From IMG/VR virus record IMGVR_UViG_3300010347_000503, positions 1 to 64,000 of that record: a stretch of DNA of 64,000 nt. One strand, given 5' to 3'. The notes beneath the pieces were generated by a model. That model made no database searches and was not told the DNA's origin. It saw only the letters and a program-made list of their open reading frames with translations. Origin of the DNA: a virus (lineage: Duplodnaviria; Caudoviricetes). Position numbers and translations under genes: made by a program. Shown one piece after another: positions 27,580 through 45,309 of the stretch (positions within the stretch are counted from its first letter, which is position 1; the number at the start of each line of letters is the position of its first letter).

Positions 27580-27696
27580 TGAGTGGTGGCGGAAAAGGTA
27601 GACGCTAAAAGGGCTCGGTACTTGATAGGGGAGAGGCAAAGAATTTGTGTCCTATCAACACAAAATTCATGTAAGGTGCAAATCCTTACCCACTCA
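27580..27696 (+). ncRNA. tRNA-like RNA (Leu-type D arm, T arm) with the anticodon region replaced by about 65 nt
   Basis: TGAGTGG/CCACTCA acceptor; GCGGAAAAGGTAGACGC D arm; GTAAGG-TGCAAAT-CCTTAC T arm; no canonical anticodon arm. Confidence 0.5.
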
Positions 27697-27700
27697 ATAA

Positions 27701-27771
27701 CCACGATTAGTACAATGGTAGTGCCTCCGTCTGATACGCGGATAACGGTGGACCGTAACCACCATCGTGGA
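27701..27771 (+). tRNA. tRNA-Ile(GAT), degenerate T loop
   Basis: TCCGT-CTGATAC-GCGGA; acceptor CCACGAT/ATCGTGG. Confidence 0.7.
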
Positions 27772-27889
27772 GTAGACACATTAACAGCAAATGTTTATAA
27801 TGGTGAAGAAAATCAAATGGGTTGATTTTTAGAGTGAACTTTGAGCGAGTTTTGATTAATCACTTCTTTCTCTCGCTCTTAAAAAAAAT

Positions 27890-28318
27890 AATAAGTTGGA
27901 AGTGGTCCTTACTGGTGGGTTGGTCATAAACCAGTCGTTTATAGAGATGCCTAGCATAGACCCTCTCACTTAGGTGCGAGAAGCCTTAAAGACGCGCGGT
28001 CAATGCTCTCGGTAATTAAAAGGTTTCCTAACGAGGTAAATAAAAAAGGAAAGTAATAGTTTGCAAACGAAAGGTATTGGTTGGTAGCCATTGGACAGAT
28101 CCAAAAATATCAACAAGATTTGAACTTCAAATCTATGAGTATCACGGCTAACGAAGAAATTTCACGCCGGTCGGAATGAGAAATTTCAGGCGGTCTTGCG
28201 GAAGACAAGGTTGAGTGACTCTGAAATCTTCCTTTATTATGCTCTGCCCCCCGCAAAGGGCAAGTAAAGAATGGGATGCGGCGGTGTCTCCTATGGAGGA
28301 GCCTGATACACCGGTCAC
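27890..28318 (+). ncRNA. Large structured ncRNA candidate (about 430 nt)
   Basis: ORF-poor, GC-elevated spacer inside the tRNA operon with several hairpins (e.g. GCCCCC-GCAA-AGGGC, GTCTT-GCGG-AAGAC). Confidence 0.45.
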
Positions 28319-28332
28319 AAATTCAGGCATAT

Positions 28333-28410
28333 GGTCCCTGAGTCTGCGGTAGGCGTGGACGCCGCCCTGTCACGGCGGAAACTAGACGGGTTCGACCCCC
28401 GTAGGGATCG
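28333..28410 (+). tRNA. tRNA-Asp(GTC)
   Basis: CCGCC-CTGTCAC-GGCGG; GGTTCGA T loop. Confidence 0.8.
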
Positions 28411-28421
28411 TTTAAAAATTT

Positions 28422-28493
28422 GGTTGCGTAGTGTAGCGGTTAACACGCCTGACTGTCTCTCAGGTAGCGTGGGTTCGAATCCCACCGTGATCG
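28422..28493 (+). tRNA. tRNA-Asp(GTC), second copy
   Basis: CCTGA-CTGTCTC-TCAGG; canonical D and T arms. Confidence 0.8.
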
Positions 28494-28494
28494 T

Positions 28495-28632
28495 TTTGCA
28501 GTAGCTCAATTGGAAGAGCGCTAGATGGTCTAATCTAGGTCACATTGACGATACGTCATAGTTAGAGCCAATGGATTAGTCACCCATTTAGGTTTCGGTA
28601 TGATGGTGCGGGTTCGAGTCCCGCCTGCATAG
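28495..28632 (+). ncRNA. tRNA-like RNA with an expanded (about 65 nt) variable region and a non-7-nt anticodon loop
   Basis: TAGCTCAATTGGAAGAGC D arm; CTAGA-TGGTCTAA-TCTAG; GCGGG-TTCGAGT-CCCGC T arm. Confidence 0.55.
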
Positions 28633-28635
28633 TTA

Positions 28636-28717
28636 GGGAGTTGAGCAATAAGACCATCCGGTTGGTAAGGCAGTAAGCCTCTGTAGAAAGAGGCGGGGTA
28701 GTACCCGCAACTCTTCC
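28636..28717 (+). ncRNA. Small tRNA/tmRNA-TLD-like RNA
   Basis: GGGAGTTG/CAACTCTT closing stem; GCGGG-GTAGTA-CCCGC T-like arm; no anticodon arm. Confidence 0.35.
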
Positions 28718-28726
28718 TCTCTATAT

Positions 28727-28798
28727 TGGGGTATAGTACAACGGTTAGTGCAGGCGTCTTATAAGCGTCTAACCTGGGTCCGACTCCCAGTACCCCGA
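28727..28798 (+). tRNA. tRNA-Ile(TAT)
   Basis: GGCGT-CTTATAA-GCGTC; acceptor TGGGGTA/TACCCCG. Confidence 0.8.
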
Positions 28799-28875
28799 CT
28801 AAAAAAGTTATTTGACATTTCTTAAAAATTATGATATGATATATATATCAAAAGAAAAAATAAGAGGTGATAAAA

Positions 28876-29178
28876 ATGATTGTTGCTATTCATGCATATG
28901 AAGAAATTTATGGTGGATTACATGGAATTGAAGATTATCTTGTTACTGAAGTAAAAGATTTAAAAATAGCAGAAGATATTGCATCAGATTTAGCTTATAA
29001 TGTAGTTGAGGATTATTCTTATAATTTTGATGAAGAAGATTTAGAAGATCCTGAATTATGTTGGGAAATCTATGAAATAATTGATACAAAAGGTAAAACT
29101 GTAGAAAAATTGAATATTGAATATCATTATGATTCAGAGGGTTTTCTTACTGAATATAATTGCGTTCAAGTAGTTTAA
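28876..29178 (+). CDS. Hypothetical acidic protein (paralog of 32923-33228)
   Basis: MIVAIHAYEE...; has promoter and RBS. Confidence 0.7.
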   Translation: MIVAIHAYEEIYGGLHGIEDYLVTEVKDLKIAEDIASDLAYNVVEDYSYNFDEEDLEDPELCWEIYEIIDTKGKTVEKLNIEYHYDSEGFLTEYNCVQVV

Positions 29179-29235
29179 AAAGTTATTTGACATTTTAAAA
29201 AAAATATGATATAATATATATATCAAAAGAAAAAA

Positions 29236-29470
29236 TTGGGGAGTTACCATTTAAAGAGCCTATCTTCCCCCTTACAAGCGCAAAGTAAGGTTATTAAAAA
29301 GACTTGGAAAGTCGAAAAGGGAGATTAACCGCTACATTACAATTCCGGTGCGGTATATAAAATGCGGAAAGCACTGCCCGAGTACGGGGTGCGGTGAACT
29401 AATCTGCATAGGTTGTGACTGGTGTAATTTTTGCACGATGCAGAGATTTAAGGGTTTCAAGCGGAAAAGA
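29236..29470 (+). ncRNA. Structured ncRNA candidate directly after a strong promoter
   Basis: Helices GGGGAG/CTTCCCC, CTTAC/GTAAG, GACTT/AAGTC and AGATTA-ACCG/CGGT-TAATCT. Confidence 0.4.
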
Positions 29471-29481
29471 AACGGGCTTAT

Positions 29482-29554
29482 GGCGGATTCGTCTAGCGGC
29501 TTAGGATCCCTGATTCTCAGTCAGGGGACATTGGTTCGAATCCAATATCCGTCA
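29482..29554 (+). tRNA. tRNA-Glu(CTC)
   Basis: CCTGA-TTCTCAG-TCAGG. Confidence 0.85.
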
Positions 29555-29808
29555 TTTCCACAGAGCATAGAAACCAAAGTGGAGTATTGTAGCATCCCCC
29601 TTTATGGCTGAACAAATAACTCGCTTTCCATAAGAAAGAGAATCAGGACTGGGTGTAAAGCTGACTTGGTAGGCTATGGTGGATAAAAACTGGATACTGC
29701 GGAGAAAACCTGTTCTAACCAGTATAAAAAAGTAACAACAACCGCTTACTCAGAGCGTATAGATGGGGTGGAGGGTTTGCTAGTTTTCCTAGGTAAAAAC
29801 TAGTATAT

Positions 29809-29880
29809 GGCGGGTTCGACAAGTGGCTAAGTCGCGTCTCTTTCACGGACGAGTCAGGGGTTCGATCCCCCTACCCGCTA
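29809..29880 (+). tRNA. tRNA-Glu(TTC)
   Basis: CGTCT-CTTTCAC-GGACG. Confidence 0.85.
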
Positions 29881-29952
29881 CGCAGAATGTTAAGTTCTGT
29901 CGCTTACCTCTTTTCTCTGGCTGGGCGACCAGTTAAAAAACGCCTATATTAT

Positions 29953-30025
29953 CGCGGGTTGGAGTAATTGGAAACTCACTTGCCTCATACGCAAGAGATT
30001 GCAGGTCCGAGTCCTGTGCCCGCAA
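29953..30025 (+). tRNA. tRNA-Met(CAT), initiator-like (C1:A72 mismatch)
   Basis: CTTGC-CTCATAC-GCAAG. Confidence 0.8.
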
Positions 30026-30027
30026 TT

Positions 30028-30140
30028 AAAGACTCTAACAGCAATTTTGCTGGCTCCTAGCCAGGGTAGTCTAAAGGTTAAGACATTCAACATTAAATTG
30101 AAAAATAGTGGTTCGAATCCACCCCCTTAAATAAGTCTTG
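30028..30140 (+). ncRNA. YrlA/Y-RNA-like element: AAGAC/GTCTT stem, AACAGCAA motif and an embedded tRNA-like D/anticodon/T domain
   Basis: TAGTCTAAAGGTTAAGAC, TTCAA-CATTAAA-TTGAA and GTGG-TTCGAAT-CCAC enclosed by the terminal stem. Confidence 0.5.
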
Positions 30141-30208
30141 TAATAATAATTGACATTAATAAAAAATTATGATATAATATTTATATAATAAAATAAAAGG
30201 AGAGAAAA

Positions 30209-30337
30209 ATGATAAAGACAGAAAAGTTAGCATTAATTAAGGATAGATATAATAAGTTGGCGGGAACCCCGAAGAATGTAAAGGCGCCGGGTGTAGTGCG
30301 AAAATTGGCAAGACAAATTCGTAATATGGAAAAGTAA
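30209..30337 (+). CDS. 42-aa basic hypothetical protein
   Basis: Promoter and RBS AAGGAG; MIKTEKLALIKDRYNKL... Confidence 0.65.
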   Translation: MIKTEKLALIKDRYNKLAGTPKNVKAPGVVRKLARQIRNMEK

Positions 30338-30339
30338 AA

Positions 30340-30660
30340 ATATTAGGAAGCGTTTGTTGTGAAAGGCAACTTGGTACAATAGTCCAATAACTATTGATAG
30401 TGTGAGATAGAGCTTTGAGTCTTATGACTCCGCAGGCAGCGCAGGAATCACTCATGCATACCCTCTGTGGATAAAGGCTCTAATATATTTAAGCGGAAGA
30501 TAATTAATCTTTCGTATATTACTTAGCACTGAAGTTATGCGGTGTACGAGGGTGACGCAAACAGGTCTTATTCTTTGCTTCGTTATAAAAAACCTACTTT
30601 CTCCGAAATGAGAAAATAAAACTATTCTAATTCAAACAATAAGATAAGAGTTAGAGATTC
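30340..30660 (+). ncRNA. Structured ncRNA candidate with a possible pseudoknot
   Basis: Helix 30408-16/30473-82; ACCCTC (30460)/GAGGGT (30548) crossing it; several hairpins. Confidence 0.4.
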
Positions 30661-30662
30661 AC

Positions 30663-30747
30663 GGGCGTGTGCCGAAACTGGAGAGACGGAGCGGATTTAA
30701 AATCCGCTACATTAGAAACGCTGTGGGTTCGAATCCCACCACGCCTA
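30663..30747 (+). tRNA. tRNA-Leu(TAA)
   Basis: GCGGA-TTTAAAA-TCCGC; long variable arm. Confidence 0.85.
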
Positions 30748-30753
30748 CTTAAT

Positions 30754-30825
30754 GCAGTCATAGTTTAACGGTTAGAATTGGTGCTTGCCATGCACCGGAT
30801 ACGAGTTCAATTCTCGTTGGCTGCT
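30754..30825 (+). tRNA. tRNA-Gly(GCC)
   Basis: GGTGC-TTGCCAT-GCACC. Confidence 0.85.
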
Positions 30826-30850
30826 TAATCTTAATATTGGAATAAGATAT

Positions 30851-30924
30851 GCCCGACTACCCCAACTGGCAGAGGGATATGATTAAGGGTCATAGCAGTC
30901 TGGATTCGAATTCCAGGTCGGGCA
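30851..30924 (+). tRNA. tRNA with AAG (Leu) anticodon and short variable arm
   Basis: TATGA-TTAAGGG-TCATA; 5-nt variable loop. Confidence 0.7.
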
Positions 30925-31045
30925 TTTATAAAAAAATTTATAATCGAATAAAGTGACTGTCGTAATAGACCTGGTCCACCACCTGATACTTAAAGTCGGG
31001 GAACTCCAGAGGAAGTCCTCTGCAAGGCGGGTTGAGCCGCCAAAT

Positions 31046-31116
31046 AGGCCTCTGGTGTAACGGTAGCATACGCGGCTCCAACCCGCTTGGTCAGGGTTCG
31101 AATCCTTGGGGGCCTG
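31046..31116 (+). tRNA. tRNA-Trp(CCA)
   Basis: GCGG-CTCCAAC-CCGC. Confidence 0.8.
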
Positions 31117-31127
31117 GTTAATATAAT

Positions 31128-31218
31128 AGGGGTGTAGCATAATGGTTAATGCAGCTGTCTCTAAAACAGCCAGGTGCGTCCAAACCACCGGATGTGGGTT
31201 TAAATCCTACCACCCCTG
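31128..31218 (+). tRNA. Amber suppressor tRNA (CTA), long variable arm (Ser/Tyr-like)
   Basis: GCTGT-CTCTAAA-ACAGC gives anticodon CTA; discriminator G. Confidence 0.8.
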
Positions 31219-31220
31219 TA

Positions 31221-31334
31221 TCGAGAGGTAGTTTAATGGCAGAACGCTGTTTTTGAATTTAGAAATAAATTTTTACAGCAGTTTCTTTTTGCTTGGGGAG
31301 CCGGTAATGCAGGTTTGAATCCTGCCCTTTCGAT
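31221..31334 (+). tRNA. tRNA-Pro(GGG) interrupted by a 41-nt insert (31250-31290) in the anticodon stem
   Basis: Removing the insert yields CTGGC-TTGGGGA-GCCGG. Confidence 0.6.
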
Positions 31335-31489
31335 TAAGAGCTTTATAGGAAAAAGGGGTTGGTACCTCCTATATAAAAATTAACCTAAGTCTAATTATTA
31401 ATACCAACAGTAATTAGATAAGCGACGGACAGTTCGGGTTGATGTGTATATGGGTTCGATTCCCATCTTAAGTAACTGAGTCTTGTTTA

Positions 31490-31578
31490 TACGGGTTTAC
31501 TCTAATTGGTAAGAGACTGGTCTTGAAAACCAGCGTAGCTGTCAAAGGCGATCGGGGTTCGAGTCCCTGAGCCCGTGG
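31490..31578 (+). tRNA. tRNA-Ser(TGA)
   Basis: CTGGT-CTTGAAA-ACCAG; long variable arm. Confidence 0.85.
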
Positions 31579-31862
31579 TTAAAGAGAGGGAGGAGTTTCA
31601 GAAGCGCTGCTATCTGGGGCTTTTTTCTTTTATGTGCTGAAAATATTTATTTTCAGCACTTTTTTATTTAGAATAAAGTTACAATAATCTGCTCGGGCGG
31701 CAAACGTGCGTCACGTGGGAAACAATTAGGTGTTTTGACTTTTTTCAAGGCAATTTTTATTATTGGACAATTTTAGAAATAAGGTCTCCCGCGATTTTTA
31801 TATTTTAATAAAGAATATACTCTTTTATAACAGAGTCAATTTATTAAAAGGAGGAAACAATA

Positions 31863-32042
31863 ATGTTTAAAATAATATCTAACCTTGAAGCTGGAGTTGT
31901 TGAGATTATGGCAGATGAAAGATCAGATATAGATAATTTACCAGATACTTCAGAAGTAAGTATGGGAAGTAATTGTCTTGTAATTGAAGATGGTTCTGTA
32001 TGGATTCTCAATAGCGAGGATGAATGGGTTGAAATTGAATAA
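31863..32042 (+). CDS. 59-aa acidic protein (possibly virion-associated)
   Basis: RBS AAGGAGG; MFKIISNLEAG...GSNCLVIEDGSVWILNSEDEW. Confidence 0.6.
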   Translation: MFKIISNLEAGVVEIMADERSDIDNLPDTSEVSMGSNCLVIEDGSVWILNSEDEWVEIE

Positions 32043-32074
32043 ATAAATCTGTATAGAAAGGAGATTTATTTATT

Positions 32075-32866
32075 ATGAAAATAGAAGGAAATATAAAACA
32101 ATTATTTTATATAGATATAATAGATACAAATAGATGGATTCAAAAAGGTTTTGATAAAGACGGAATAAAATTTGAAGATAGAGAAATTAAGGATATTCAA
32201 GGAACTCTTTGCACAATGAAATACGCAATAATAAGATTCAATAAAAATGCACAAGGACAATCTCAAGCTAGCGGAAAAGGAGGGGTTGTAAAAATAGGTT
32301 ACTCTTGTAGACCTTCTATTACTAGATTTCCTATATTTTTAACTTATCCTAATGATGCAAATGAATATTGTATTTATATAGGAAAAACTGGATTATTTGA
32401 ATCTCAAACTGATACTTGGATGGATGTAAATAACGAAGATCCAAAAGCAAGAGAAGAGCAAGTAAGTGTTGTAGAAGTAACTTCTATAGCGATTCCATGG
32501 GCCTATCCTAATGGAATTACTACTTTTAATGAATTTGAATCAATTATTGACTATGTTGAATCAACTGATAAAGAAGGCACTTATAATATAAAAAATCAAC
32601 CAGATCCATATAATCATTCTATAAAGCCTATTGTAACTAATAGAGATTTTTCTTGTAGACAACATATTATAGCTTATGTTGATTCAGAAGATCGTTTTAT
32701 TTTTAAAGTAAAAGCAAAAAAACCATCATTAAAATGTAATAACTGTCAAGAAGGAGTTCATGCAACGGTAAATGCTGATAATGAAACTGCTTATTTTTAT
32801 AGTATATGTAAACAGCATATATATTTTTCAGGTGCAAGAGAAACTTTTTCTGTAAATTTTATTTGA
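32075..32866 (+). CDS. Hypothetical protein
   Basis: RBS AAGGAG; 263-aa ORF. Confidence 0.7.
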   Translation: MKIEGNIKQLFYIDIIDTNRWIQKGFDKDGIKFEDREIKDIQGTLCTMKYAIIRFNKNAQGQSQASGKGGVVKIGYSCRPSITRFPIFLTYPNDANEYCIYIGKTGLFESQTDTWMDVNNEDPKAREEQVSVVEVTSIAIPWAYPNGITTFNEFESIIDYVESTDKEGTYNIKNQPDPYNHSIKPIVTNRDFSCRQHIIAYVDSEDRFIFKVKAKKPSLKCNNCQEGVHATVNADNETAYFYSICKQHIYFSGARETFSVNFI

Positions 32867-32922
32867 TTTTTTAAAAAATTTTTGATATAATATATATATC
32901 AAATGAAAAAAGAGGAAAAAAT

Positions 32923-33228
32923 ATGATAGTAGCTATTCACGTATATATGGAAACATTTCATGGATTTCATGAACTAGATGATTATACTATTAAAAAAGTA
33001 AATGATGTTTTTGAAGCAGATGACCTAGCGAATAATATATGCGAAATTATTATTAAAAAATGTATTGATGATGAATATGATATTAATGATTGTGATATTG
33101 ATTATGAAATTTATGAATTAGAGTTAGATAAACTACCTATTGGAAAAGAACTTTGTGATTTAGCTCAAAATTTTTCTCTTGATAAAGGTAATTTTTTAAA
33201 AATGTATAATGCAAAAAGGTTGTTTTAA
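32923..33228 (+). CDS. Hypothetical acidic protein (paralog of 28876-29178)
   Basis: MIVAIHVYME... Confidence 0.7.
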   Translation: MIVAIHVYMETFHGFHELDDYTIKKVNDVFEADDLANNICEIIIKKCIDDEYDINDCDIDYEIYELELDKLPIGKELCDLAQNFSLDKGNFLKMYNAKRLF

Positions 33229-33285
33229 AAAATTATTTGATATTTTTAAAAATTTATGATATAATAAATATGTAATAAAAAAGAA

Positions 33286-33347
33286 AAGGCACCTACAGCA
33301 AATTTATTTTATACTTCTACTTTTAATAGTAAATTTTGTGCCTTGAC
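33286..33347 (+). ncRNA. ACAGCAA-stem element (Y-RNA-like family)
   Basis: AAGGCAC/GTGCCTT stem with CTACAGCAA directly inside. Confidence 0.4.
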
Positions 33348-33350
33348 AAT

Positions 33351-34091
33351 CGGGGTGTAAGTCAGTTGGTAGACTGCGTGATTTGGTAAAAAAACTTTAA
33401 TATAACTCCAAATAAACCATGGATGAAACACTTATTCGTGGCGATGTAAATGAACTCCAATGTATTTTAGACTTCCAAAAAAGAGGGTATTATTGCAGTA
33501 TTCCTTTCAGCGGTTCTTGTAGATACGATGTAGTTGTAGATATAAATAATAAATTATATCGTATTCAATGTAAATCATCTACTTTTCATGAAGAAGATGG
33601 AACATTAAGAATGTATGCTATTAGAACTACAACAAATACTCAAAAAACAATAAGGTATTCCTATTCAAAAGAAGAAGTAGATTTCTTTTATACAAGTTGG
33701 AATAATTATGGCTTTTTAATTCCTGTGAATGAAGTTTCAACGACTAAATATTTAAGAGTAAAAAAGCCAAAAAATGGAATACAAGAGGGGATGTCTATTG
33801 CTGCTGATTATCTTATTGACAATGTTTTAGAAGCTATTGTTAATAATAAATCAATCAGTAAATATCAAGATAATAGATTTATTTCATGGAAAGAAAATGA
33901 ACTTGAAAAAGTTTGGTCTGTTGATGAATTAAAATCTGTTTATCAAGATAGACAAATAAGATATATAAAGGAGTGCATCGCAAACAACAAAATGGCTTAT
34001 CAATATAATTGGAAGTATAAGGAGTTCCCTGAGTTATAAGAGTATTTTTTACTGGATCACGATGCCGTGGGTTCGAGTCCCGCCACCCCGA
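33351..34091 (+). tRNA. tRNA-Pro(TGG) split by a 668-nt insert (33387-34054) at the anticodon
   Basis: 5' half CGGGGTG...CGTGATTTGG and 3' half GATCACG...GTTCGAGTCC...CACCCCGA join into a canonical tRNA-Pro. Confidence 0.85.
33419..34039 (+). CDS. PD-(D/E)XK homing endonuclease-like protein (I-Ssp6803I/PDDEXK_5-like) inside the tRNA-Pro insert
   Basis: GDVNE...RYDVVVD.....RIQCKS pattern. Confidence 0.75.
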   Translation: MDETLIRGDVNELQCILDFQKRGYYCSIPFSGSCRYDVVVDINNKLYRIQCKSSTFHEEDGTLRMYAIRTTTNTQKTIRYSYSKEEVDFFYTSWNNYGFLIPVNEVSTTKYLRVKKPKNGIQEGMSIAADYLIDNVLEAIVNNKSISKYQDNRFISWKENELEKVWSVDELKSVYQDRQIRYIKECIANNKMAYQYNWKYKEFPEL

Positions 34092-34283
34092 TTAACCTTT
34101 TTGCTATTCAGCACCTTAAAATAAGGTATAGGTTAAAATATAATTTTTTAAGCGAAAATTATATTTCAAGGAAATTGTGAATATTGGTGGAAAAAATATC
34201 TATAAATGATATTTAAAAGAAAGCTCTATGGCTTAGATAGAGATCAATGAAATCACCAATACAAACTTTCTTTTAAATATTAT

Positions 34284-34356
34284 AGCTCATTAGCAGAATG
34301 GAATATGCGGGCGCCTCAAAAGTGTCAATTTCTGGGTTCGAATCCCAGATGGGCTA
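34284..34356 (+). tRNA. tRNA with CAA (Leu) anticodon and short variable arm
   Basis: GGCGC-CTCAAAA-GTGTC; canonical T arm. Confidence 0.65.
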
Positions 34357-34463
34357 GTGGTACTTAATAGTACCTGTAATGTACCTCTCCTTTCATCGTA
34401 AGTTGTGGTTATCAACGTGCTATAAGCGGGAACTGCTAGAGATCTTGAATCTGGTTCCCGTAT

Positions 34464-34534
34464 AGGGGATTAGCTTAATGGTAGAGCAGCGGGTTTTGAT
34501 CCCGCGTGTGTGGGTTCGACTCCCGCATCCCTTA
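34464..34534 (+). tRNA. tRNA-Gln(TTG)
   Basis: GCGGG-TTTTGAT-CCCGC. Confidence 0.85.
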
Positions 34535-34684
34535 TTTACAGGGGTTAGTAATCTCTGTATAGTGAAAAAAATATCCATTAGAAAGTCGCCTGGATAAGGC
34601 GCGCGCATCTTTTAAAGAGTGGATCCGGATTCTTTGCCCATATAGGGACACTAATGGCGTTTGCGGTCGACGATAAACCGCTTT

Positions 34685-34757
34685 ATCCCTGTAAGCTAAT
34701 GGAATAGACTACTAGGTTACGACCCTAGATGTGTGGGTTCGAATCCCGCTGGGGATG
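34685..34757 (+). tRNA. tRNA-Arg(ACG)
   Basis: CTAGG-TTACGAC-CCTAG. Confidence 0.8.
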
Positions 34758-34760
34758 TAA

Positions 34761-34832
34761 GCAGGCGTAGTCTAATGGAAAGAACAGGGCACTTCTAATG
34801 CTCTAATGGGGGTTCGATTCCCTCCGCCTGTA
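34761..34832 (+). tRNA. tRNA-Arg(TCT)
   Basis: GGGCA-CTTCTAA-TGCTC. Confidence 0.85.
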
Positions 34833-34865
34833 GTTAGTCCTACTTTGCAAAAAGGAGGTATTAAA

Positions 34866-35159
34866 ATGTCTCGTTCATACAAAAAGAGTCCAGTTTATAC
34901 AGATGGTAACGCGGGTACAACAAAAGAAATGAAGCGTTTAGCTAATAAAGTAGTTAGAAATACAGATTTTGATAAATTACCAATGAAAGGGAAAGGATAT
35001 AAAAAATGTTTTCAATCTTGGAATATTCACGATTGGAGAGATAGATATACTAAACAAGAATGGGCAAATTATTATAATAAACAAATTAATCATTGGTGGT
35101 TTACAGATACATATGAAGAACATATGAAACAATGGGATAAAATGTATCGGAGAAAATAA
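34866..35159 (+). CDS. Basic hypothetical protein (MSRSYKK...)
   Basis: RBS AAGGAGG. Confidence 0.75.
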   Translation: MSRSYKKSPVYTDGNAGTTKEMKRLANKVVRNTDFDKLPMKGKGYKKCFQSWNIHDWRDRYTKQEWANYYNKQINHWWFTDTYEEHMKQWDKMYRRK

Positions 35160-35161
35160 AA

Positions 35162-35397
35162 ATGAAAACTGAAATAAAAATCAATGTTAATGATTTAGAA
35201 ACTTTTATAGCAGCATTAAATAATGCTATTATTGCTTATAATGATATTAGAGAGCGCCTTTCTTTTTTGGTATTGAGGAAGAAAATTTAAACTCTAAATG
35301 GTATGAAAATACTGGTCTTAATTATGAAATATTAACTGAAAGAATTGAAGAATTAAAATATGTATATGACCAATTATTAGAATTGGAAAATAAATAA
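35162..35397 (+). pseudogene. Small ORF with an apparent 1-nt frameshift at a T6 run (about 35263-35268)
   Basis: One extra T gives a continuous ...RERLSFFGIEEENLNSKWY...ELENK*. Confidence 0.4.
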
Positions 35398-35751: not shown

Positions 35752-35755
35752 CTTT

Positions 35756-35826
35756 AAGACGCTAACAGCAAAAATTTTAATATTTTTCCTACCAAATTTT
35801 TAGGATTCATTATAAAGCGTCTTGAC
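35756..35826 (+). ncRNA. ACAGCAA-stem element (Y-RNA-like family)
   Basis: AAGACGCT/AGCGTCTT 8-bp stem with AACAGCAA inside. Confidence 0.45.
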
Positions 35827-35891
35827 ATTTTAAAAAAATTATGATATAATATATATATCAAAACAAACAAAGAAAGGTAAATAAAAATCAA

Positions 35892-36740: not shown

Positions 36741-36862
36741 ATTAAAGGAAGAAGAGAAGCCATGATGAGAGTGTAAAACTCACTCCATTTTACAATCATA
36801 TACTTATTAGATCCGCCCCCACATATTATACTATACGATAACTTTGTGGGGGCATTTTTTTT

Positions 36863-37267: not shown

Positions 37268-38828
37268 ATGAACACTTTTTTGAATGAAATGAAGAACGCT
37301 TCTAACTATGCAGTAACAGAGAACGGGGCTTTAGCACATAAAACCACACGTTCCGCAGTTTACGATATGTTTGCTCTTGGCGGTGCTTACCGCAAGAGAA
37401 GTGATGAAGACTGTATTCTCTTATTCAAGAACGCTCTTGAAGAGAATGAGACTCTGGCATTGAAGTGTCTGTTTTATTTACGTGATTGCCGCGGAGGTAA
37501 GCTCTTTGCCTAGCCTCCCTATATAGTGATATATAGTAAAAAATTCTGTGAACCCAAGCAAAAGGGGTGTCAGATTTAATCTGGCTAACGGTTCAGAAGA
37601 TAGAAATATCGTTATGAGTAAGGGAACCTAAGTCTTATAAAGATATGGTAATACCGTGCCAAGCTACATTTGGTCAATTTTATAAAAATATTTTCTTATT
37701 ATTTTAATATCTCTATGTAAGATTAGAACAGGGAGAAAAAATATGGGATATATTTATAAAATTGAAAACTTAATAAATCATAAAATTTATATTGGGCAAA
37801 CTACTAAAGAACGACCTACTGATAGATTTAGTCAGCATCGTTATTTAACTAGGCATCCAGAACAAGAAACTTCTATTAGTTATCTTCATAGAGCGATGAA
37901 TAAATATGGGGTAGAGAATTTTTCTTTTGAAATTATTGAAGAAATTGAAGATAATCTTCTTAATGAGAGAGAGCAATATTGGATAAAAGAAAAAGAATCT
38001 TTAATGCCAAATGGCTATAATATGACAATAGGTGGAGAAGGAACCATAGGATATTCAAGAATTCAATCTAAAGAAGAAAAAATGAAAAGAAGTAAATCAG
38101 TAAAAAAATTTTATGAGAATAATCCAGAAGCTATTAAAAAATTAAGAGAAAGAACTTTATCTTTATGGCAAGATGAAGAATACAGAAAACGAGTGACGGA
38201 AAGTAATAAAAAATTTTATTCTGAACATCCTGATAAATTTAAAGGAGAAAATAATCCAATGTATGGTAAACATCATACAGAAGAATCATTAGAAAAAATT
38301 CGTAACCATGCCGCAACTCGAAAAAATAAAATTGCCCAATTAGATAAAGACACTTTAGAAATTATTAACATTTATGATGGAATAAAAGATGCTGAAAAAG
38401 CGTTAGGTGTTGGTCATGGATGGATATCTAAAGCGGCAAGACAAGATAAAATTGCTTATGGATACAAATGGAAACTTATGTAGAAGGTGTAACGACTAAT
38501 ATGTAGAATAGAGATTAGCACTATTCGAAGCGCAGAACTCTTTCTTAATTTTGGTTAAGAGAGATGAAGAGATAGTCTGCGAAATTATGAAAATAATTTT
38601 ATCGCCGTGCAGGGTGAAAGACGCTTCTTCCGCGTTTGCTATAAGTGGTTAGCTACTAAACACGCAGATATTGCTCGTAAATACATTGAGTGCATCCCAT
38701 ATTATGGACGCTATGATGATATTTATTGCTTATTTAATACTCCTCTTGAACAAGATGCTTTAGCTTTTATTAAAAAAGAAATTGATAATGGCTTAGAAAT
38801 TTTAGGTGCGTTAGATGAGTTGGGATAA
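37268..38828 (+). CDS. rsr: Ro60/TROVE N-terminal part; exons 37268-37498 and 38610-38828
   Basis: TENGALAH..T, LFYLRDCRGG|QGERRFF and YGRYDD TROVE motifs; in frame after splicing. Confidence 0.85.
37499..38609 (+). mobile_element. Group I intron carrying a homing endonuclease
   Basis: P1 GGAGGT/GCCTCC with a U.G splice pair; core AATACCGTGCCAAGC, GTAACGACT and AAGAGATAGTCT; terminal G38609. Confidence 0.9.
37743..38483 (+). CDS. GIY-YIG homing endonuclease (NUMOD-type C-terminal modules)
   Basis: GYIYKIENLINHKIYIGQT; ENNPMYGKHHTEES. Confidence 0.9.
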   Translation: MGYIYKIENLINHKIYIGQTTKERPTDRFSQHRYLTRHPEQETSISYLHRAMNKYGVENFSFEIIEEIEDNLLNEREQYWIKEKESLMPNGYNMTIGGEGTIGYSRIQSKEEKMKRSKSVKKFYENNPEAIKKLRERTLSLWQDEEYRKRVTESNKKFYSEHPDKFKGENNPMYGKHHTEESLEKIRNHAATRKNKIAQLDKDTLEIINIYDGIKDAEKALGVGHGWISKAARQDKIAYGYKWKLM

Positions 38829-40942: not shown

Positions 40943-41716
40943 ATGGGAAGAACATTTGTCAGTAGTGATTGGCATGGATGTGAAGTAGCTAAAAAAGTAT
41001 TTGATTTTCTTAAGCCAGATGATACTTTATATTTTCTTGGAGATGCAGCAGATCGAGGTCCAATTGGTGCTGAATTAATAGAAAATATATTGAATGATAA
41101 TAGAATAATTTATCTTAAAGGAAATCATGAAGAATTTTTTATTGAATGTATGTTAAATATTTATGATACTAATTATGTAGGTGGCATGAATGGTGTCTGG
41201 TATTATCGAAATGGTGGAGAATCTACAATTGATGCCTTTATAGATAAAAAGAAATACACAAGAGAGCAGATAATTAGTATTATTGAAAAAATTAAAAAAC
41301 TTCCTACAGTATGTAATTACAGAAATAAAAAAGGTAATAATATTATCCTTGAACATGCAGGATATACTCCTTGGGAGTTTAAAAAAATGCAACGTCACGA
41401 TCCGCTTTGGGATAGAACTCATTTTTTCGATGCTTATGATCAAAAGGGTGCTAACACTTATATTATTCATGGTCATACGCCAGTTCAATATCTTCAATTT
41501 TATTATGGTTATATAGATCAACCTAAAAGAACTATTGAAGATTTAGAAATAAAAAAAGCTTGGGAAAATGATGAACCAATGGGGAATTGGAAACCTACTA
41601 TTCTTCATTATTGTAATAGACATAAAATTGATATTGATATGTGTACTATTACTAGTAATAGAGTCGCATTATTAGATCTTGATACTTTTGAAGAAATTTA
41701 TTTTGATGCAGATTAA
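40943..41716 (+). CDS. Calcineurin-like metallophosphoesterase (Ser/Thr phosphatase-like)
   Basis: SDWHG, LGDAADRG, KGNHE and HGHTP. Confidence 0.9.
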   Translation: MGRTFVSSDWHGCEVAKKVFDFLKPDDTLYFLGDAADRGPIGAELIENILNDNRIIYLKGNHEEFFIECMLNIYDTNYVGGMNGVWYYRNGGESTIDAFIDKKKYTREQIISIIEKIKKLPTVCNYRNKKGNNIILEHAGYTPWEFKKMQRHDPLWDRTHFFDAYDQKGANTYIIHGHTPVQYLQFYYGYIDQPKRTIEDLEIKKAWENDEPMGNWKPTILHYCNRHKIDIDMCTITSNRVALLDLDTFEEIYFDAD

Positions 41717-42157: not shown

Positions 42158-42192
42158 ATAAAAGTGATTTTATAATAAAAGGAGAATGATTT

Positions 42193-43452
42193 ATGATAAA
42201 TAGAAATACTCAGATGCGCGAACTCGCATACGTCGTTACGGTTGACGCAGTAGAGCCTATTTCTGGTCGTGACCGTGTAGAATGTGCTAGAGTAGGTGGT
42301 TGGACTTGTATGGTTCCAAAGGGTGCATTTAAAGCTGGTGATCCGGGTATCTATTTTGAGATTGACTCTCAGGTTCCTGTAGATAAAGATCCGTTTAAGT
42401 TCTGTGAGAAATATAAGGGACGCATTAAGACTCAGAAATTCAAGACCCCGGATGGTCAGTTCTGGTCTCAAGGTCTCTTAATGGCTGCCGCAGATTTTGG
42501 TTGGACTACTGATTTTGCTCAGTTTGCTGGAGATTTTGGTTTTATTGTAGATGATAAGGGCGTGCAGCATATTCCTGGAGAAGAGTCTGCATTTTTAACT
42601 ACTCAGCTTGGCGTAACTTATTATGAGATAGAGGACCAGAAGCGGAAGGCTGCATCTACTGTTGATAAGTATAAGAAAATGGCTGGACGTCATCCACAGC
42701 TTTTCAAGAACAATGCTATTGTAAAATGGCTTTATAAGCGGAATTGGGGTAAAAAGCTGCTGTTTGTTTTCTTTGGAAAGAAAAAGGACAAGACTGCGTG
42801 GCCGCAGTGGGTAGTTAAAACGGACGAGGAACGCGTTCAAAATATTCCTTTTATACTCCAGAGTGATATTCCTTGGTACGCAACTGAGAAGATCGATGGA
42901 ACCAGCACAACTTTCACTATGAAAGGAAGAGGACGCAAAAGAGAGTTTTATATCTGTTCTCGTAATGTATGTTTTGATACTCCTGAGAAGATGGAAAAGG
43001 GTGCTTGGTACGATACCAATGTATATCAAGAGATGGCGATTAAATACAATGTAGAGCAGGTACTTGCAGATATTATGGATTTATTCAAGGATCTTGAGTT
43101 CGTAACTCTTCAGGGTGAGACCTTCGGGGCTGGTATTCAGAAGAGAGATTACGGAATGAAGGATCATGATTTCCGCGCTTTCAATCTGATCTTCGGTTAT
43201 AAGAATGGAGAAAAAGAGCGTTTTAATCCGCGGAGAATGACTGACTTCCTTAAACAATTCGGTATTCCTTCTGTGCCGATTGTAGATGAACATTTCATTC
43301 TTCCGGATACTGTTGAAGAGCTGCTTAATATTGCAACTGACAAATCTGAAATTGATGGCGGAATGCGGGAAGGTTTAGTATTCCGTTCTGCAGATGGCAC
43401 TCAGAGTTTTAAAGCAGTATCTAATGAATTTTTATTGAAATATCATCAGTAA
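42193..43452 (+). CDS. ATP-dependent RNA ligase (Rnl2/DRB0094-like)
   Basis: N-terminal OB-like module; TEKIDGTS (motif I), QGETFG, FNL, REGLVF and FKAVSNEFLLK. Confidence 0.85.
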   Translation: MINRNTQMRELAYVVTVDAVEPISGRDRVECARVGGWTCMVPKGAFKAGDPGIYFEIDSQVPVDKDPFKFCEKYKGRIKTQKFKTPDGQFWSQGLLMAAADFGWTTDFAQFAGDFGFIVDDKGVQHIPGEESAFLTTQLGVTYYEIEDQKRKAASTVDKYKKMAGRHPQLFKNNAIVKWLYKRNWGKKLLFVFFGKKKDKTAWPQWVVKTDEERVQNIPFILQSDIPWYATEKIDGTSTTFTMKGRGRKREFYICSRNVCFDTPEKMEKGAWYDTNVYQEMAIKYNVEQVLADIMDLFKDLEFVTLQGETFGAGIQKRDYGMKDHDFRAFNLIFGYKNGEKERFNPRRMTDFLKQFGIPSVPIVDEHFILPDTVEELLNIATDKSEIDGGMREGLVFRSADGTQSFKAVSNEFLLKYHQ

Positions 43453-43582
43453 TAAAAATGGCGGGAACCGGGTCTAGACCCGCTCCCGCATTTCTTCTTT
43501 TAATACTCTTTTTTTATTTTTTATAAAATTTATGATATAATATATATATATAATAAAAAATAAAGAAAGAGGTGTTTATCAT

Positions 43583-43891
43583 TTGACAAAAAATAAAATG
43601 ATTCAAAGTGAGTTCTATTGTACTAAATGCGGTAAAAAAGGACTTCCAGTTTGGCGCAGGAAAGGTGACGCAAGAGAAGATGGACATTTAAAAGCATTAT
43701 ATTGTCTATTTTGTAATGATTATACAAACCATGTTGAATGTAAACCTAATACTCCATATTCTTTTGAAGATTTTAAATTAGAATATGAATATAATAATTT
43801 CACAAAAGATGGTTTAAGAATTTATACTTTAAAACAATTAAAAAATTTAGTTAGAGAAGAGAAAATTGAAAAAGTGAGGGAATTAAAATGA
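43583..43891 (+). CDS. Zinc-binding hypothetical protein
   Basis: CTKCG...GHLKALYCLFC. Confidence 0.7.
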   Translation: MTKNKMIQSEFYCTKCGKKGLPVWRRKGDAREDGHLKALYCLFCNDYTNHVECKPNTPYSFEDFKLEYEYNNFTKDGLRIYTLKQLKNLVREEKIEKVRELK

Positions 43892-44409
43892 AAAAATTAT
43901 TTATTATGGTAGGCTGCCCAGGATGCGGGAAATCTACTTATTTAAAAAATAATGAAAAATTCTTCCATAAATCTCATATTATAATTTCAAGAGATGAAAT
44001 AAGATTTTCTCTTTTAAAAGAAGGAGATTCTTATTTTTCAAAAGAAGATATAGTATATAAAGAATTTATTAAACAAATTAAAGCTGGATTAAAAATTTAT
44101 GAAGAAGTATATGTCGATGCAACTCATTTAAATGTGAGTTCCCGCAAAAAATTATTTTATGCTTTAGGTGATGCTATTAAAAATGTAGAACTTTATGCTA
44201 TTGTCATAAAAGTACCTCTTGAACAAGCACTTGTGCAAAATCAAAAAAGATTTGGAACAAAAACATATGTGCCAGAAGAAGCTCTGCGGAATATGTATAA
44301 AAATTTTATGCTTCCTACTTTAAATGAAGGATTTAAAGAAATTTGGTTATATATTTCAGAAGGTATTGATAAACCTTGTCATTTTCAAAATATTAGAAAA
44401 AGATTTTAA
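43888..44409 (+). CDS. P-loop kinase (AAA_33, polynucleotide-kinase-like)
   Basis: GCPGCGKST, SRDEIR, DAT and RKKL. Confidence 0.8.
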   Translation: MKKLFIMVGCPGCGKSTYLKNNEKFFHKSHIIISRDEIRFSLLKEGDSYFSKEDIVYKEFIKQIKAGLKIYEEVYVDATHLNVSSRKKLFYALGDAIKNVELYAIVIKVPLEQALVQNQKRFGTKTYVPEEALRNMYKNFMLPTLNEGFKEIWLYISEGIDKPCHFQNIRKRF

Positions 44410-44426
44410 AAAGGGATAGAGATAAT

Positions 44427-44609
44427 ATGAAAACAAAATTAGATAAAGAAAGAAAATATGCTTTTTGGTTAAGATTTGATCAGAAAAATTTTACAGGAAT
44501 TTATAAATGTCCTGATTGTGGAAAAGAATATACTTTTAAAGAAGCAACTGGAAAAGAAAAAAATCAAATTGGACATAATTGTCCTCATTGTGGAGTAAAA
44601 TTGAATTGA
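44427..44609 (+). CDS. Zinc-ribbon protein
   Basis: CPDCG...CPHCG. Confidence 0.7.
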   Translation: MKTKLDKERKYAFWLRFDQKNFTGIYKCPDCGKEYTFKEATGKEKNQIGHNCPHCGVKLN

Positions 44610-44746
44610 ATTAAGGAGAAAAATTACAACTGACTAACATTTTTTATAAATGCTGGTCAGTTGTAAGCAACAGTAAATGCAAGAATACGCAATGGATAGG
44701 ATAGCATAAAAGCTATTACTACTCCTTTAAGGAGGTGATTTAAAAA

Positions 44747-45309
44747 ATGAGTGCTATATACCTTACATCGGATTGGCACTTTGGTTAACAGGCCATGACC
44801 GAGACTTTATCTATCAACCTCGCGGATTTAGTTCCATGGACGAGATGAATGAAGAAATAATTACTAGATATAATGAAATTGTTAAGCCAGAAGATGATGT
44901 ATATGTACTTGGTGATTTAATGCTTGGTAATAATGAAATTGGTCTCAAATGTATTAAAAATCTTAAAGGTAATATTCATGTCATCCGCGGAAATCATGAT
45001 ACTAATACTAGAATGGATCTTTATAATAATTGCTATAATATAGTAGAAATTTGTGAAGGTAAGTTTTTAAACTATAAAGATTATCATTTTTATCTTAGTC
45101 ATTATCCTTGTTTGGCAAGTTATTATGATGAGCATAGTCCAGTTAAGCTTAAGCGAAAAATGACTAGTCTATGTGGTCATAAGCATACTCAAAATGCTTT
45201 TGAAGATTTTGATAAGGGATTGATTTATCATTGTGAAGTAGATGCACATGATTGTTATCCCGTTTCTATTGAAGAAATTATTAAAGATATAAAGGAGATT
45301 ATTATATGA
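44747..45309 (+). CDS. Metallophosphoesterase interrupted after codon 13 by GGT-TAA-CA-GGC
   Basis: RBS AAGGAGG, then MSAIYLTSDWHFG*; HDRDF...LGD...GNHD...SHYP...CGHKH continues in another frame. Confidence 0.75.

What the first reader, a model, noticed from the sequence alone, without database searches (positions are those of the whole stretch)
27580..45309. Candidate phage tRNA splicing/repair system: interrupted tRNAs, Ro60, Y-like RNAs, RNA ligase, kinase and phosphoesterases
Seen: one contiguous block holds interrupted or expanded tRNAs, Ro60/TROVE, an Rnl2-like ligase (42193), a Pnk-type P-loop kinase (43888) and two metallophosphoesterases (40943, 44747). Known: T4 Pnkp+Rnl1 heal and seal anticodon-nuclease cuts, and bacterial Rsr/YrlA/RtcB operons handle damaged tRNA. 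Inference: a heal-and-seal pathway, enzymatically like fungal tRNA splicing, that could both counter host anticodon nucleases and mature the phage's own insert-bearing tRNAs.
Basis: inference. Interest (0 to 1): 0.82.

Follow-up and report, generated by a model that had tools for sequence, protein, structure and literature searches.

The report
Phage RNA-repair genes beside ribozyme-less tRNA intron
A large uncultured gut phage carries a standard-looking kit for mending broken RNA next to its tRNA genes. One of those tRNAs is split by an endonuclease gene with no self-splicing RNA around it, so the kit may also splice that tRNA, which would be new for bacteria and their viruses.

Summary
The window (IMG/VR phage contig, about 30% GC) has a tRNA/tmRNA island at 27.6-37 kb. 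It is followed by a Ro60-like protein, a lambda-phosphatase-like esterase, an Rnl5-type (not Rnl2) RNA ligase, a T4-Pnk-like kinase and a second esterase.

Ligase, Zn-finger protein, kinase and second esterase are syntenic in three relatives. This is a heal-and-seal RNA repair cassette of a known kind. No YrlA-type Y RNA was found; only odd tRNA-like RNAs.

The surprise is the interrupted tRNA. It is tRNA-Pro(TGG), split right after the anticodon by 668 nt that are almost entirely a PD-(D/E)XK homing-endonuclease gene. There is no room for a ribozyme and no group I signature.

At least 25 distinct such elements sit in anticodon loops of other phage tRNAs, including cultured Enterococcus phage EFP01. 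Their ends pair with each other and with their own anticodon loop (p=2.5e-14 and p=2e-7). Nearly all near-complete carriers encode an RNA ligase: Rnl5-type, or RtcB in EFP01.

So tRNA splicing by the repair kit is plausible (about 0.4) but unproven, and the cutting enzyme is unknown. The same genome's tRNA intron and repair kit were also noted in other first-stage notes of this scan.

The parts
27580..27697 (+). tRNA-shaped RNA without a normal anticodon arm (acceptor, D and T arms kept)
   Evidence: MFE fold. Not called by ARAGORN or Rfam.
27701..36936 (+). tRNA island: 19 ARAGORN tRNAs plus Rfam-only tRNA hits, cut into units by repeated strong sigma-70-type promoters
   Evidence: Promoter repeat families D1, D2 and D10.
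28495..28632 (+). 138-nt expanded tRNA-like RNA with about 65 extra nt after the anticodon arm
   Evidence: Rfam tRNA 36.4 bits with a large insertion; fold.
31127..31219 (+). Class II amber-suppressor tRNA (anticodon CTA)
   Evidence: Rfam 58.8 bits.
31221..31334 (+). 114-nt class II tRNA-like RNA whose anticodon loop is replaced by a 25-nt hairpin
   Evidence: Rfam 43.8 bits; ARAGORN with a '20-nt intron'; fold.
33350..33386 (+). tRNA-Pro(TGG) 5' exon, ending at G36
   Evidence: An intact allele with an identical anticodon arm is in L029.
33387..34054 (+). 668-nt ribozyme-less insert at position 36/37 (35/36 also possible). Its ends pair with each other and with the anticodon.
33419..34039 (+). 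PD-(D/E)XK homing endonuclease (I-Ssp6803I family) with a C-terminal NUMOD1-like DNA-binding tail
   Evidence: PF11645 1.5e-24; 2OST 7.8e-7; alignment A2.
34055..34092 (+). tRNA-Pro(TGG) 3' exon, starting at G37
35398..35754 (+). Phage tmRNA
   Evidence: RF00023 70.7 bits.
37268..37498 (+). Ro-like protein (DUF2828), N-terminal fragment, exon 1
   Evidence: The junction CRGG|QGERR matches full-length homologues.
37499..38609 (+). Probable group I intron: P1 ggaggt/gcctcc with U.G at the 5' splice site, terminal G
   Evidence: No Rfam group I hit.
37743..38483 (+). Intron-encoded GIY-YIG / NUMOD homing endonuclease
38610..38828 (+). Ro-like N-terminal fragment, exon 2, ending in its own stop codon
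38848..39903 (+). Ro-like C-terminal fragment (rest of DUF2828 plus DUF7788 vWA/MIDAS domain), with its own ribosome-binding site and ATG
40943..41716 (+). Lambda-phosphatase-like metallophosphoesterase (MPE1)
42193..43452 (+). Rnl5-type ATP-dependent RNA ligase (N-terminal OB domain, about 140-aa insert, nucleotidyltransferase domain)
43583..43891 (+). Small zinc-finger protein, syntenic between ligase and kinase in two of three relatives
   Evidence: phrog_1257; synteny.
43888..44409 (+). Pnk-like 5'-OH polynucleotide kinase
44747..45309 (+). YfcE/aq_1665-like metallophosphoesterase (MPE2). It is the conserved partner of ligase and kinase. Here it is broken by 8 extra nt that include a TAA after codon 13.
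46180..47415 (+). PIN-PhoH2 RNA helicase/nuclease; neighbour of the cassette, also in L002

Best explanation
The block is a phage RNA end-healing and sealing cassette placed beside the phage's tRNA/tmRNA island and a Ro60-like RNA-binding protein.

Shown by homology:
- The kinase would phosphorylate 5'-OH RNA ends.
- A binuclear metallophosphoesterase would remove 2',3'-cyclic or 3'-phosphates. MPE2 is the conserved partner; MPE1 is a possible stand-in in this genome.
- The Rnl5-type ligase would join the resulting 3'-OH and 5'-phosphate ends.

Inferred:
- Its basic job is to mend tRNAs cut in the anticodon loop by transesterifying nucleases, such as host anticodon nucleases.
- In this phage group the same chemistry probably also makes tolerable, and may directly complete, the removal of a new kind of tRNA intron.

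That intron is a homing-endonuclease gene cassette with no ribozyme, inserted right after the anticodon. Its transcript folds into one long hairpin that continues the anticodon stem. The enzyme that makes the two cuts is unknown.
For: Repair cassette:
- The ligase is related to NgrRnl (5e-30), has a KIDG lysine motif, and matches the DraRnl family TIGR02306.
- The kinase is related to T4 Pnk, C. thermocellum Pnkp, Pnkp1 and PSTK, with P-loop and Asp/Arg motifs.
- MPE1 has all lambda-phosphatase motifs.
- Ligase, kinase and MPE2 are syntenic in L002, L003 and L004, with the Zn-finger protein between ligase and kinase in L002 and L003. Ligase identity is 50-66%.
- Published surveys describe such phage cassettes.

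Ro-like protein:
- The top 13 PDB fold matches of the homologue model are Ro60/Rsr/phage Ro60.
- It is present in 12 of 13 near-complete carriers, often 2-7 kb from the split tRNA.

Intron without a ribozyme:
- Only 32 and 15 nt are non-coding.
- The C-terminal 65 aa are conserved protein, also in a free-standing copy.
- No Rfam group I hit here or in 15 other loci.
- The splice site lacks the group I U/terminal-G rule.

RNA-level design:
- Own ends pair at -11.2 against -4.9 kcal/mol for non-cognate ends, p=2.5e-14.
- Own exons with own intron ends gain -12.9 against -8.3 kcal/mol for chimeras, p=2e-7.
- Hairpins are continuous through the anticodon.
- On my reading of the boundaries, the last three intron bases are codon-like and pair with the anticodon.

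Association with ligases:
- The ligase lies about 350 nt upstream of the tRNA pair that holds the orthologous split tRNA-Pro in G001.
- 12 of 16 carriers at least 90% complete have a PF09414 hit.
- EFP01 has RtcB instead.
- The two ligase-less complete carriers, L062 and L063, carry a whole spare tRNA-Met inside the insert.
- This record has no other tRNA-Pro.
Against: - No splicing endonuclease was found: no EndA and no RtcB in this phage or its close relatives.
- The small unknown ORFs of the cassette gave no hint.
- The kinase/esterase chemistry fits cuts that leave 5'-OH ends. A metal-dependent nuclease (PIN, RNase III, PD-(D/E)XK) would leave 5'-phosphates and need no kinase.
- Solved Rnl5 enzymes are known, from my recollection, to seal nicks in duplexes, not anticodon loops.
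- The cassette is present in relatives that lack the endonuclease: G006 is complete, and 3 of 11 gyrase-matched relatives have the ligase while none of the 11 has the endonuclease. So it does not depend on the introns.
- Carriers are related phages, so co-occurrence may be inheritance. 13 of 16 against 2 of 5 is not significant (about p=0.1, my estimate).
- The end-to-end stem is also present in a free-standing copy (L007), so part of the structure belongs to the endonuclease cassette itself.
- MPE2 is frame-broken in this genome.
- G038 is complete, has no known ligase and may hold an interrupted tRNA.
Confidence: 0.6

Rival explanations
1. The repair cassette is only an anti-defence or RNA quality-control device. 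The split tRNA-Pro is a dead gene, killed by a selfish homing endonuclease that targets conserved phage tRNA genes. The hairpin serves the endonuclease's own expression or mRNA processing.
For: - The endonuclease is a complete modular DNA homing enzyme.
- Free-standing copies keep the terminal stem (L007).
- One homologous insert sits in a degenerate tRNA (L006).
- L062 and L063 bring their own spare tRNA.
- The cassette exists without introns.
- Phage tRNAs are often dispensable (general knowledge).
Against: - Exons are intact cloverleaves in about 35 loci across endonucleases only 30-45% identical.
- Intron ends are specifically complementary to their own anticodon loop, including codon-like triplets. 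A dead gene would not select for this.
- It is the only tRNA-Pro in the record.
Confidence: 0.3
2. The inserts are spliced, but independently of this cassette: by an unrecognised small ribozyme, by the endonuclease protein itself acting on the RNA hairpin, or by host enzymes such as a host RtcB.
For: - The conserved hairpin has a small internal loop (A opposite CA or UA) 10-12 nt from the anticodon stem.
- On the 36/37 reading the two splice sites are 3 bp apart with 3' overhang polarity. From memory, this is the cut pattern of I-Ssp6803I on DNA; I could not check it.
- G038 has no phage ligase.
Against: - The conserved non-coding sequence is far too small for any known ribozyme.
- The first and last intron bases are not conserved.
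- Nearly all reliable carriers encode their own ligase.
Confidence: 0.12
3. Kinase, esterases and ligase act on something other than tRNA, for example DNA nicks with RNA 3' ends, mRNA, or protein dephosphorylation by the NinI-like esterase. Their position next to the tRNA island is incidental.
For: - MPE1 is nearest to protein phosphatases.
- Rnl5 enzymes prefer nicked duplexes (recollection).
- The cassette lies among DNA-metabolism genes: gyrase, NAD-dependent DNA ligase, DnaB.
Against: - The kinase's nearest relatives are RNA or tRNA kinases.
- The ligase-kinase-esterase triad mirrors bacterial Pnkp repair enzymes.
- In G001 the ligase gene abuts tRNA genes.
Confidence: 0.1

Closest known systems
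T4 Pnkp + Rnl1 and bacterial Pnkp (Clostridium thermocellum Pnkp/Hen1) RNA repair
   Same: A 5' kinase, a 3' end-healing phosphoesterase and an ATP-dependent ligase are encoded together. C. thermocellum Pnkp also uses a lambda-phosphatase-type metallophosphoesterase. The kinase matches T4 Pnk and Pnkp kinase domains.
   Different: Here there are three separate proteins plus a Zn-finger protein. The ligase is Rnl5-type rather than Rnl1 or Rnl4. No Hen1 was seen. The conserved esterase is a small YfcE/aq_1665-like enzyme.
Rnl5 ligases (Deinococcus DraRnl, Naegleria NgrRnl)
   Same: An N-terminal OB domain followed by a nucleotidyltransferase domain; 5e-30 to NgrRnl; KxDG motif.
   Different: About 140 extra residues lie between the two domains. 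The score is below the TIGR02306 cut-off: 87 against 151 bits. The substrate is unknown.
Bacterial rsr-yrlBA-rtcBA and Ro60/Y RNA systems, and phage Ro60 (mycobacteriophages, Thermus phage phiLo)
   Same: A Ro-shaped protein (helical ring plus vWA domain) is encoded near tRNA-like RNAs and an RNA ligase.
   Different: There is no Pfam TROVE match; the family is DUF2828/DUF7788. No YrlA-type RNA was found. The gene here is split in two and carries an intron.
Group I intron in cyanobacterial tRNA-fMet encoding I-Ssp6803I
   Same: The same endonuclease family (PF11645, 2OST) and the same kind of target, the anticodon loop of a tRNA gene.
   Different: There is no ribozyme. The insert is essentially only the ORF plus short pairing ends.
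Archaeal/eukaryal protein-spliced tRNA introns (EndA/Sen plus RtcB or Trl1)
   Same: The position is next to the anticodon, the intron pairs with anticodon-loop bases, some archaeal introns carry endonuclease ORFs, and a protein ligase is needed.
   Different: The position is 36/37 rather than 37/38. There is no bulge-helix-bulge motif, because both sites lie in a continuous helix. There is no EndA and no Tpt1. The host domain is Bacteria.

Membership tests
Rnl5 RNA ligase | N-terminal OB domain followed by a C-terminal nucleotidyltransferase domain | tested here: met
   PF21189 at residues 11-81 and PF09414 at residues 227-409. Two stretches match NgrRnl.
Rnl5 RNA ligase | Motif I lysine (KxDG) for adenylylation | tested here: met
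   KIDG at residue 233.
Rnl5 RNA ligase | Score above the curated family cut-off (TIGR02306) | tested here: not met
   86.9 bits against a cut-off of 151. It is a divergent relative with a 140-aa insert.
Rnl5 RNA ligase | Seals 3'-OH/5'-phosphate RNA ends with ATP | not testable with these tools
   Needs biochemistry.
Pnk-type 5'-OH polynucleotide kinase | P-loop GxxxxGK(S/T) plus a catalytic Asp and Arg about 20 residues downstream | tested here: met
   GCPGCGKS at residues 9-16 and SRDEIR at residues 34-39. Hits to T4 Pnk, Pnkp1 and C. thermocellum Pnkp.
Binuclear metallophosphoesterase, lambda-phosphatase type (MPE1) | DxH, GDxxDR, GNH(D/E) and GH motifs | tested here: met
   DWH, GDAADR, GNHE and HGH; 1G5B at 1.5e-6.
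Metallophosphoesterase MPE2 | Intact reading frame carrying all metal-binding motifs | tested here: not met
   The DxH motif lies in a 13-codon piece, followed by TAA and a frame change. L002 has an intact colinear gene.
Ro60 / TROVE | Match to the Pfam TROVE domain | tested here: not met
   Only DUF2828 and DUF7788 match. There is no sequence hit to Ro60 chains.
Ro60 / TROVE | Helical-repeat ring followed by a vWA/MIDAS domain (Ro60 fold) | tested here: met
   Model of homologue P0002 (pLDDT 76): the top 13 PDB matches are Ro60/Rsr/phiLo Ro60, E 1e-6 to 5e-4, TM 0.33-0.51, spanning most of the model. Moderate TM.
Ro60 / TROVE | Partner Y RNA (YrlA-like) encoded nearby | tested here: not met
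   Best YrlA match is 28 bits against a gathering score of 69, spanning two tRNAs.
Group I intron (tRNA-Pro insert) | Conserved catalytic core of about 200 nt (P3-P9) | tested here: not met
   Only 47 nt are non-coding and the ORF tail is conserved protein. No RF00028 hit at E up to 10, nor at E up to 0.01 in 15 related loci.
Group I intron (tRNA-Pro insert) | U before the 5' splice site and G as the last intron base | tested here: not met
   The 5' exon ends in G. The last base varies among homologues.
Group I intron (Ro-like gene intron, 37499-38609) | P1 with a U.G pair at the 5' splice site, terminal G, exact in-frame junction | tested here: met
   ggaggt/gcctcc pairing and the last base G. 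The junction equals that of uninterrupted homologues.
Group I intron (Ro-like gene intron, 37499-38609) | Match to the Rfam group I model | tested here: not met
   No hit. The 741-nt ORF inside may defeat the model, so I treat this as inconclusive for membership.
Archaeal-type (BHB) tRNA intron | Two 3-nt bulges separated by a 4-bp helix at the splice sites | tested here: not met
   Predicted precursors form a continuous helix through both sites.
Archaeal-type (BHB) tRNA intron | EndA/Sen-type splicing endonuclease available | tested here: not met
   No PF01974 match in five related phage records. The host was not examined.
PD-(D/E)XK homing endonuclease (I-Ssp6803I family) | Match to PF11645 above cut-off and to the solved enzyme | tested here: met
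   87 bits against a cut-off of 26; 2OST at 7.8e-7.

The most novel reading that the evidence does not exclude
Large phages of Gram-positive gut bacteria carry a previously undescribed class of tRNA intron. It is a homing-endonuclease cassette with no ribozyme, inserted immediately after the anticodon. Its last three bases mimic the codon and pair with the anticodon. It would be removed by protein enzymes, and the exons joined by the phage's own RNA ligase (Rnl5 plus kinase plus esterase, or RtcB). That would be protein-dependent tRNA splicing in the bacterial world, evolved on top of an RNA repair kit.
Probability: 0.35. Interest if true: 0.92.

Novelty: new variant of a known kind. Interest (0 to 1): 0.76.

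Why it matters
Phage RNA repair kits are known. Protein-dependent tRNA splicing is regarded as a trait of archaea and eukaryotes, and every bacterial and phage tRNA intron I know of is a self-splicing group I intron.

Here a family of at least 25 distinct endonuclease cassettes sits in tRNA anticodon loops with no ribozyme. Their RNA structure is tuned to the anticodon, and the carrier phages nearly always bring an RNA ligase.

If these tRNAs are spliced, it would show how a repair pathway can be co-opted for splicing. It would offer a living model for the origin of enzymatic tRNA splicing and add a new type of mobile intron.

It is directly testable, because a cultured phage (Enterococcus phage EFP01) carries one. 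If they are not spliced, the finding still documents widespread, unannotated destruction of phage tRNA genes by homing endonucleases.

Tried and rejected
- Near-identity search of the block against GenBank phages found no match.
- Rfam at permissive thresholds gave no group I or II intron, ribozyme or Y RNA over the island, over both introns or over 15 related loci.
- Bulge-helix-bulge, RNase III (2-nt overhang), RNase P/Z mimicry, hammerhead and kink-turn readings of the splice-site hairpin were considered by eye. I dropped them because the stagger and conserved bases do not fit.
- ARAGORN's identities (Thr-GGT here; Ser, Gln, Leu and perhaps Asp elsewhere) were rejected where the nearest intact tRNAs say otherwise.
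- EndA, RtcB, Rnl1 and Tpt1 are absent from this phage group, except RtcB in EFP01.
- The unknown ORFs 41735-42157 and 45685-46113 are phage-only hypotheticals.
- A gyrase-matched control set was too small (11 records, 5 near-complete) for a significant co-occurrence test.
- The I-Ssp6803I specificity paper was not held, so its DNA cut pattern is quoted from memory only.

Full report
**What the window is.** The window is the first 64 kb of a 90.9-kb IMG/VR virus record judged about 58% complete, with about 30% GC. Gyrase, an NAD-dependent DNA ligase, DnaB and many homing endonucleases mark it as a large lytic phage. Relatives of its genes come from gut and rumen-type metagenomes and from phages of Gram-positive bacteria.

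**The tRNA island.** ARAGORN finds 19 tRNAs between 27701 and 36936, and Rfam adds further tRNA hits and a tmRNA at 35398-35754. Repeated strong promoters (TTGACA, extended -10) cut the island into units, and one lies just upstream of the split tRNA.

Three RNAs are tRNA-shaped but abnormal:
- 27580-27697 has no normal anticodon arm.
- 28495-28632 is 138 nt.
- 31221-31334 is 114 nt, and a hairpin replaces its anticodon loop.

No YrlA-type Y RNA is present. The one sub-threshold match (28 against 69 bits) merely bridges two adjacent tRNAs. The ACAGCAA motif noted by another reader is mildly enriched, 16 copies against 7.9 expected. I could not tie it to a structure.

**The enzymes.**
- *Ligase (42193-43452).* It has an N-terminal OB domain and an RNA_ligase domain. 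It is most like Naegleria NgrRnl (5e-30) and the DraRnl family, and it keeps the KIDG lysine. It is therefore Rnl5-type, with an extra segment of about 140 aa.
- *Kinase (43888-44409).* It keeps the P-loop and the Asp/Arg of T4 Pnk. It matches T4 Pnk, Pnkp1, C. thermocellum Pnkp and PSTK.
- *MPE1 (40943-41716).* It has every lambda-phosphatase motif.
- *MPE2 (from 44747).* It is a small YfcE/aq_1665-like esterase. Compared with its intact homologue in L002, the window copy has 8 extra bases, including a TAA, after codon 13.

tblastn against three relatives shows ligase, kinase and MPE2 as the conserved core, with the Zn-finger protein between ligase and kinase in two of them. MPE1 and PIN-PhoH2 travel with it only in L002. 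This is a heal-and-seal cassette of the kind surveyed by Iyer et al. 2021 (PMC7824862).

**The Ro-like protein.** Pfam calls it DUF2828 plus DUF7788, not TROVE. The family is very large: more than 6000 hits, in about 500-aa and about 360-aa size classes. An AlphaFold model of the 491-aa homologue P0002 (85% identical; pLDDT 76) has Ro60, Rsr and Thermus-phage Ro60 as its top 13 PDB matches, followed by vWA/MIDAS domains. So it resembles Ro60 in fold but is not shown to be a TROVE family member.

In the window the gene is in pieces:
- Exon 1 ends at CRGG.
- An 1111-nt intron follows. It has a P1 helix with a U.G pair, a terminal G and a GIY-YIG endonuclease.
- Exon 2 resumes at QGERR, exactly as in uninterrupted homologues.
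- Exon 2 then ends in a stop. A new ribosome-binding site and ATG start the 351-aa C-terminal part.

**The split tRNA.** ARAGORN reads Thr(GGT) with a 666-nt intron. The canonical fold is tRNA-Pro(TGG). An intact tRNA-Pro in L029 has the identical 19-nt anticodon arm, and the orthologous split gene in L005 is called Pro.

The insert is 33387-34054, at position 36/37, with 35/36 also possible. All but 32 and 15 nt is an ORF for an I-Ssp6803I-family PD-(D/E)XK endonuclease. Its C-terminal 65 residues (motif AYGYKWKY, NUMOD1-like) are conserved as protein, also in a free-standing copy. There is no group I hit even at E=10 and no U/terminal-G rule. This is not a self-splicing intron of any known kind.

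**How common it is.** A profile scan of IMG/VR with six such endonucleases returned 79 loci. In about 35 of the 54 closest, ARAGORN joins flanking halves into a canonical tRNA around a 450-830-nt insert. The hosts are Pro, Thr, Asn/Asp, Lys, Gln, Met and others. One example is cultured Enterococcus phage EFP01, where neither the tRNA nor the intron is annotated. Fifteen loci gave no group I hit at E up to 0.01.

**RNA architecture.**
- In 25 non-identical elements the first and last 25 nt pair with each other far better than with the ends of other elements: -11.2 against -4.9 kcal/mol, p=2.5e-14. Clear compensatory changes are seen, for example TTGC/GCAA against TTAC/GTAA.
- Adding the exons, each element fits its own anticodon loop better than foreign ones: -12.9 against -8.3 kcal/mol, p=2e-7.
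- The predicted precursor is one long hairpin. It consists of the anticodon stem, a 32.38 mismatch, a continuous helix through the anticodon and both splice sites, a small internal loop (A opposite CA or UA), then a second helix.
- After I corrected identities with the nearest intact tRNAs, most elements fit insertion at 36/37. The last three intron bases are then complementary to the anticodon: AAG for Lys, AAC for Asn, ACA for Thr, CAA for Gln, CTG or CTA for Pro. This boundary reading is my inference.
- A terminal stem also flanks the free-standing copy in L007. Part of the structure therefore belongs to the cassette, but the pairing to the anticodon does not.

**Link to the ligase.**
- In G001 the ligase gene lies about 350 nt upstream of the tRNA pair that includes the orthologous split tRNA-Pro.
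- Of 16 carrier records at least 90% complete, 12 have a PF09414 match.
- EFP01 lacks one but encodes RtcB, 9e-60.
- Two carriers, L062 and L063, have no ligase, but their inserts contain a complete second tRNA-Met, which makes splicing unnecessary.
- One carrier, G038, remains unexplained.
- The Ro-like gene is in 12 of 13 near-complete reliable carriers, in none of 5 gyrase-matched controls, and in the intron-free relative G006.
- The cassette also occurs without the endonuclease, so it does not exist for the introns.
- The carriers are kin, so these counts are suggestive only.

**What is missing.** I found no enzyme for the two cuts: no EndA and no RtcB in the close group, and no Tpt1. Unknown ORFs gave nothing. 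A kinase implies 5'-OH ends, that is, a transesterifying nuclease. The phage's own PIN domain and the PD-(D/E)XK enzyme would leave 5'-phosphates.

**Verdict.**
- The repair cassette is real and of a known kind (about 0.8).
- A role against anticodon nucleases is the default inference.
- A second role in splicing ribozyme-less tRNA introns is plausible (about 0.35-0.4) and would be important.
- The main rival, about 0.3, is that these tRNAs are simply dead.

Noticed in passing
window 44747-44800: The MPE2 gene has 8 extra bases (around GTTAACAG, with an in-frame TAA) after codon 13, compared with the intact colinear gene in L002. This could be a pseudogene, a footprint of a mobile element, or programmed frameshifting or bypassing.
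   Followed up: partly
window 38780-38860: The Ro-like gene is genuinely split. The N-terminal part ends in a 13-aa unrelated tail and a stop. A ribosome-binding site and ATG then restart the C-terminal part. About a quarter of the listed homologues are about 360 aa, so the same split (or an insertion at this site) recurs.
   Followed up: partly
window 31127-31219: A class II amber-suppressor tRNA (anticodon CTA) lies in the island. Stop-codon reassignment in late genes was not examined.
   Followed up: no
window 28636-28722: A GC-rich 87-nt stretch between tRNAs folds into a cloverleaf-like four-way structure that no tRNA tool calls.
   Followed up: no
L053:2412-2998 and L029:3096-3417: ROOL RNA (RF03087; 265 and 154 bits) lies just downstream of the split tRNA in Enterococcus phage EFP01 and in another carrier phage.
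   Followed up: no
L062:1430-2025 (and L063): The endonuclease cassette inside tRNA-Met also carries a complete second tRNA-Met gene. These complete genomes have no RNA ligase. It looks like a homing element that brings its own replacement for the gene it breaks.
   Followed up: partly
window 48172-48999 and 56863-57960: Further free-standing HNH and GIY-YIG endonuclease genes lie next to the gyrase and DNA ligase genes. The genome is heavily colonised by homing endonucleases.
   Followed up: no
window 27508-35874: Seven copies of a near-identical strong promoter (TTGACA, TGnTATAAT) head the tRNA transcription units. One, at 33215-33289, drives the split tRNA-Pro and hence the endonuclease ORF inside it.
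   Followed up: partly
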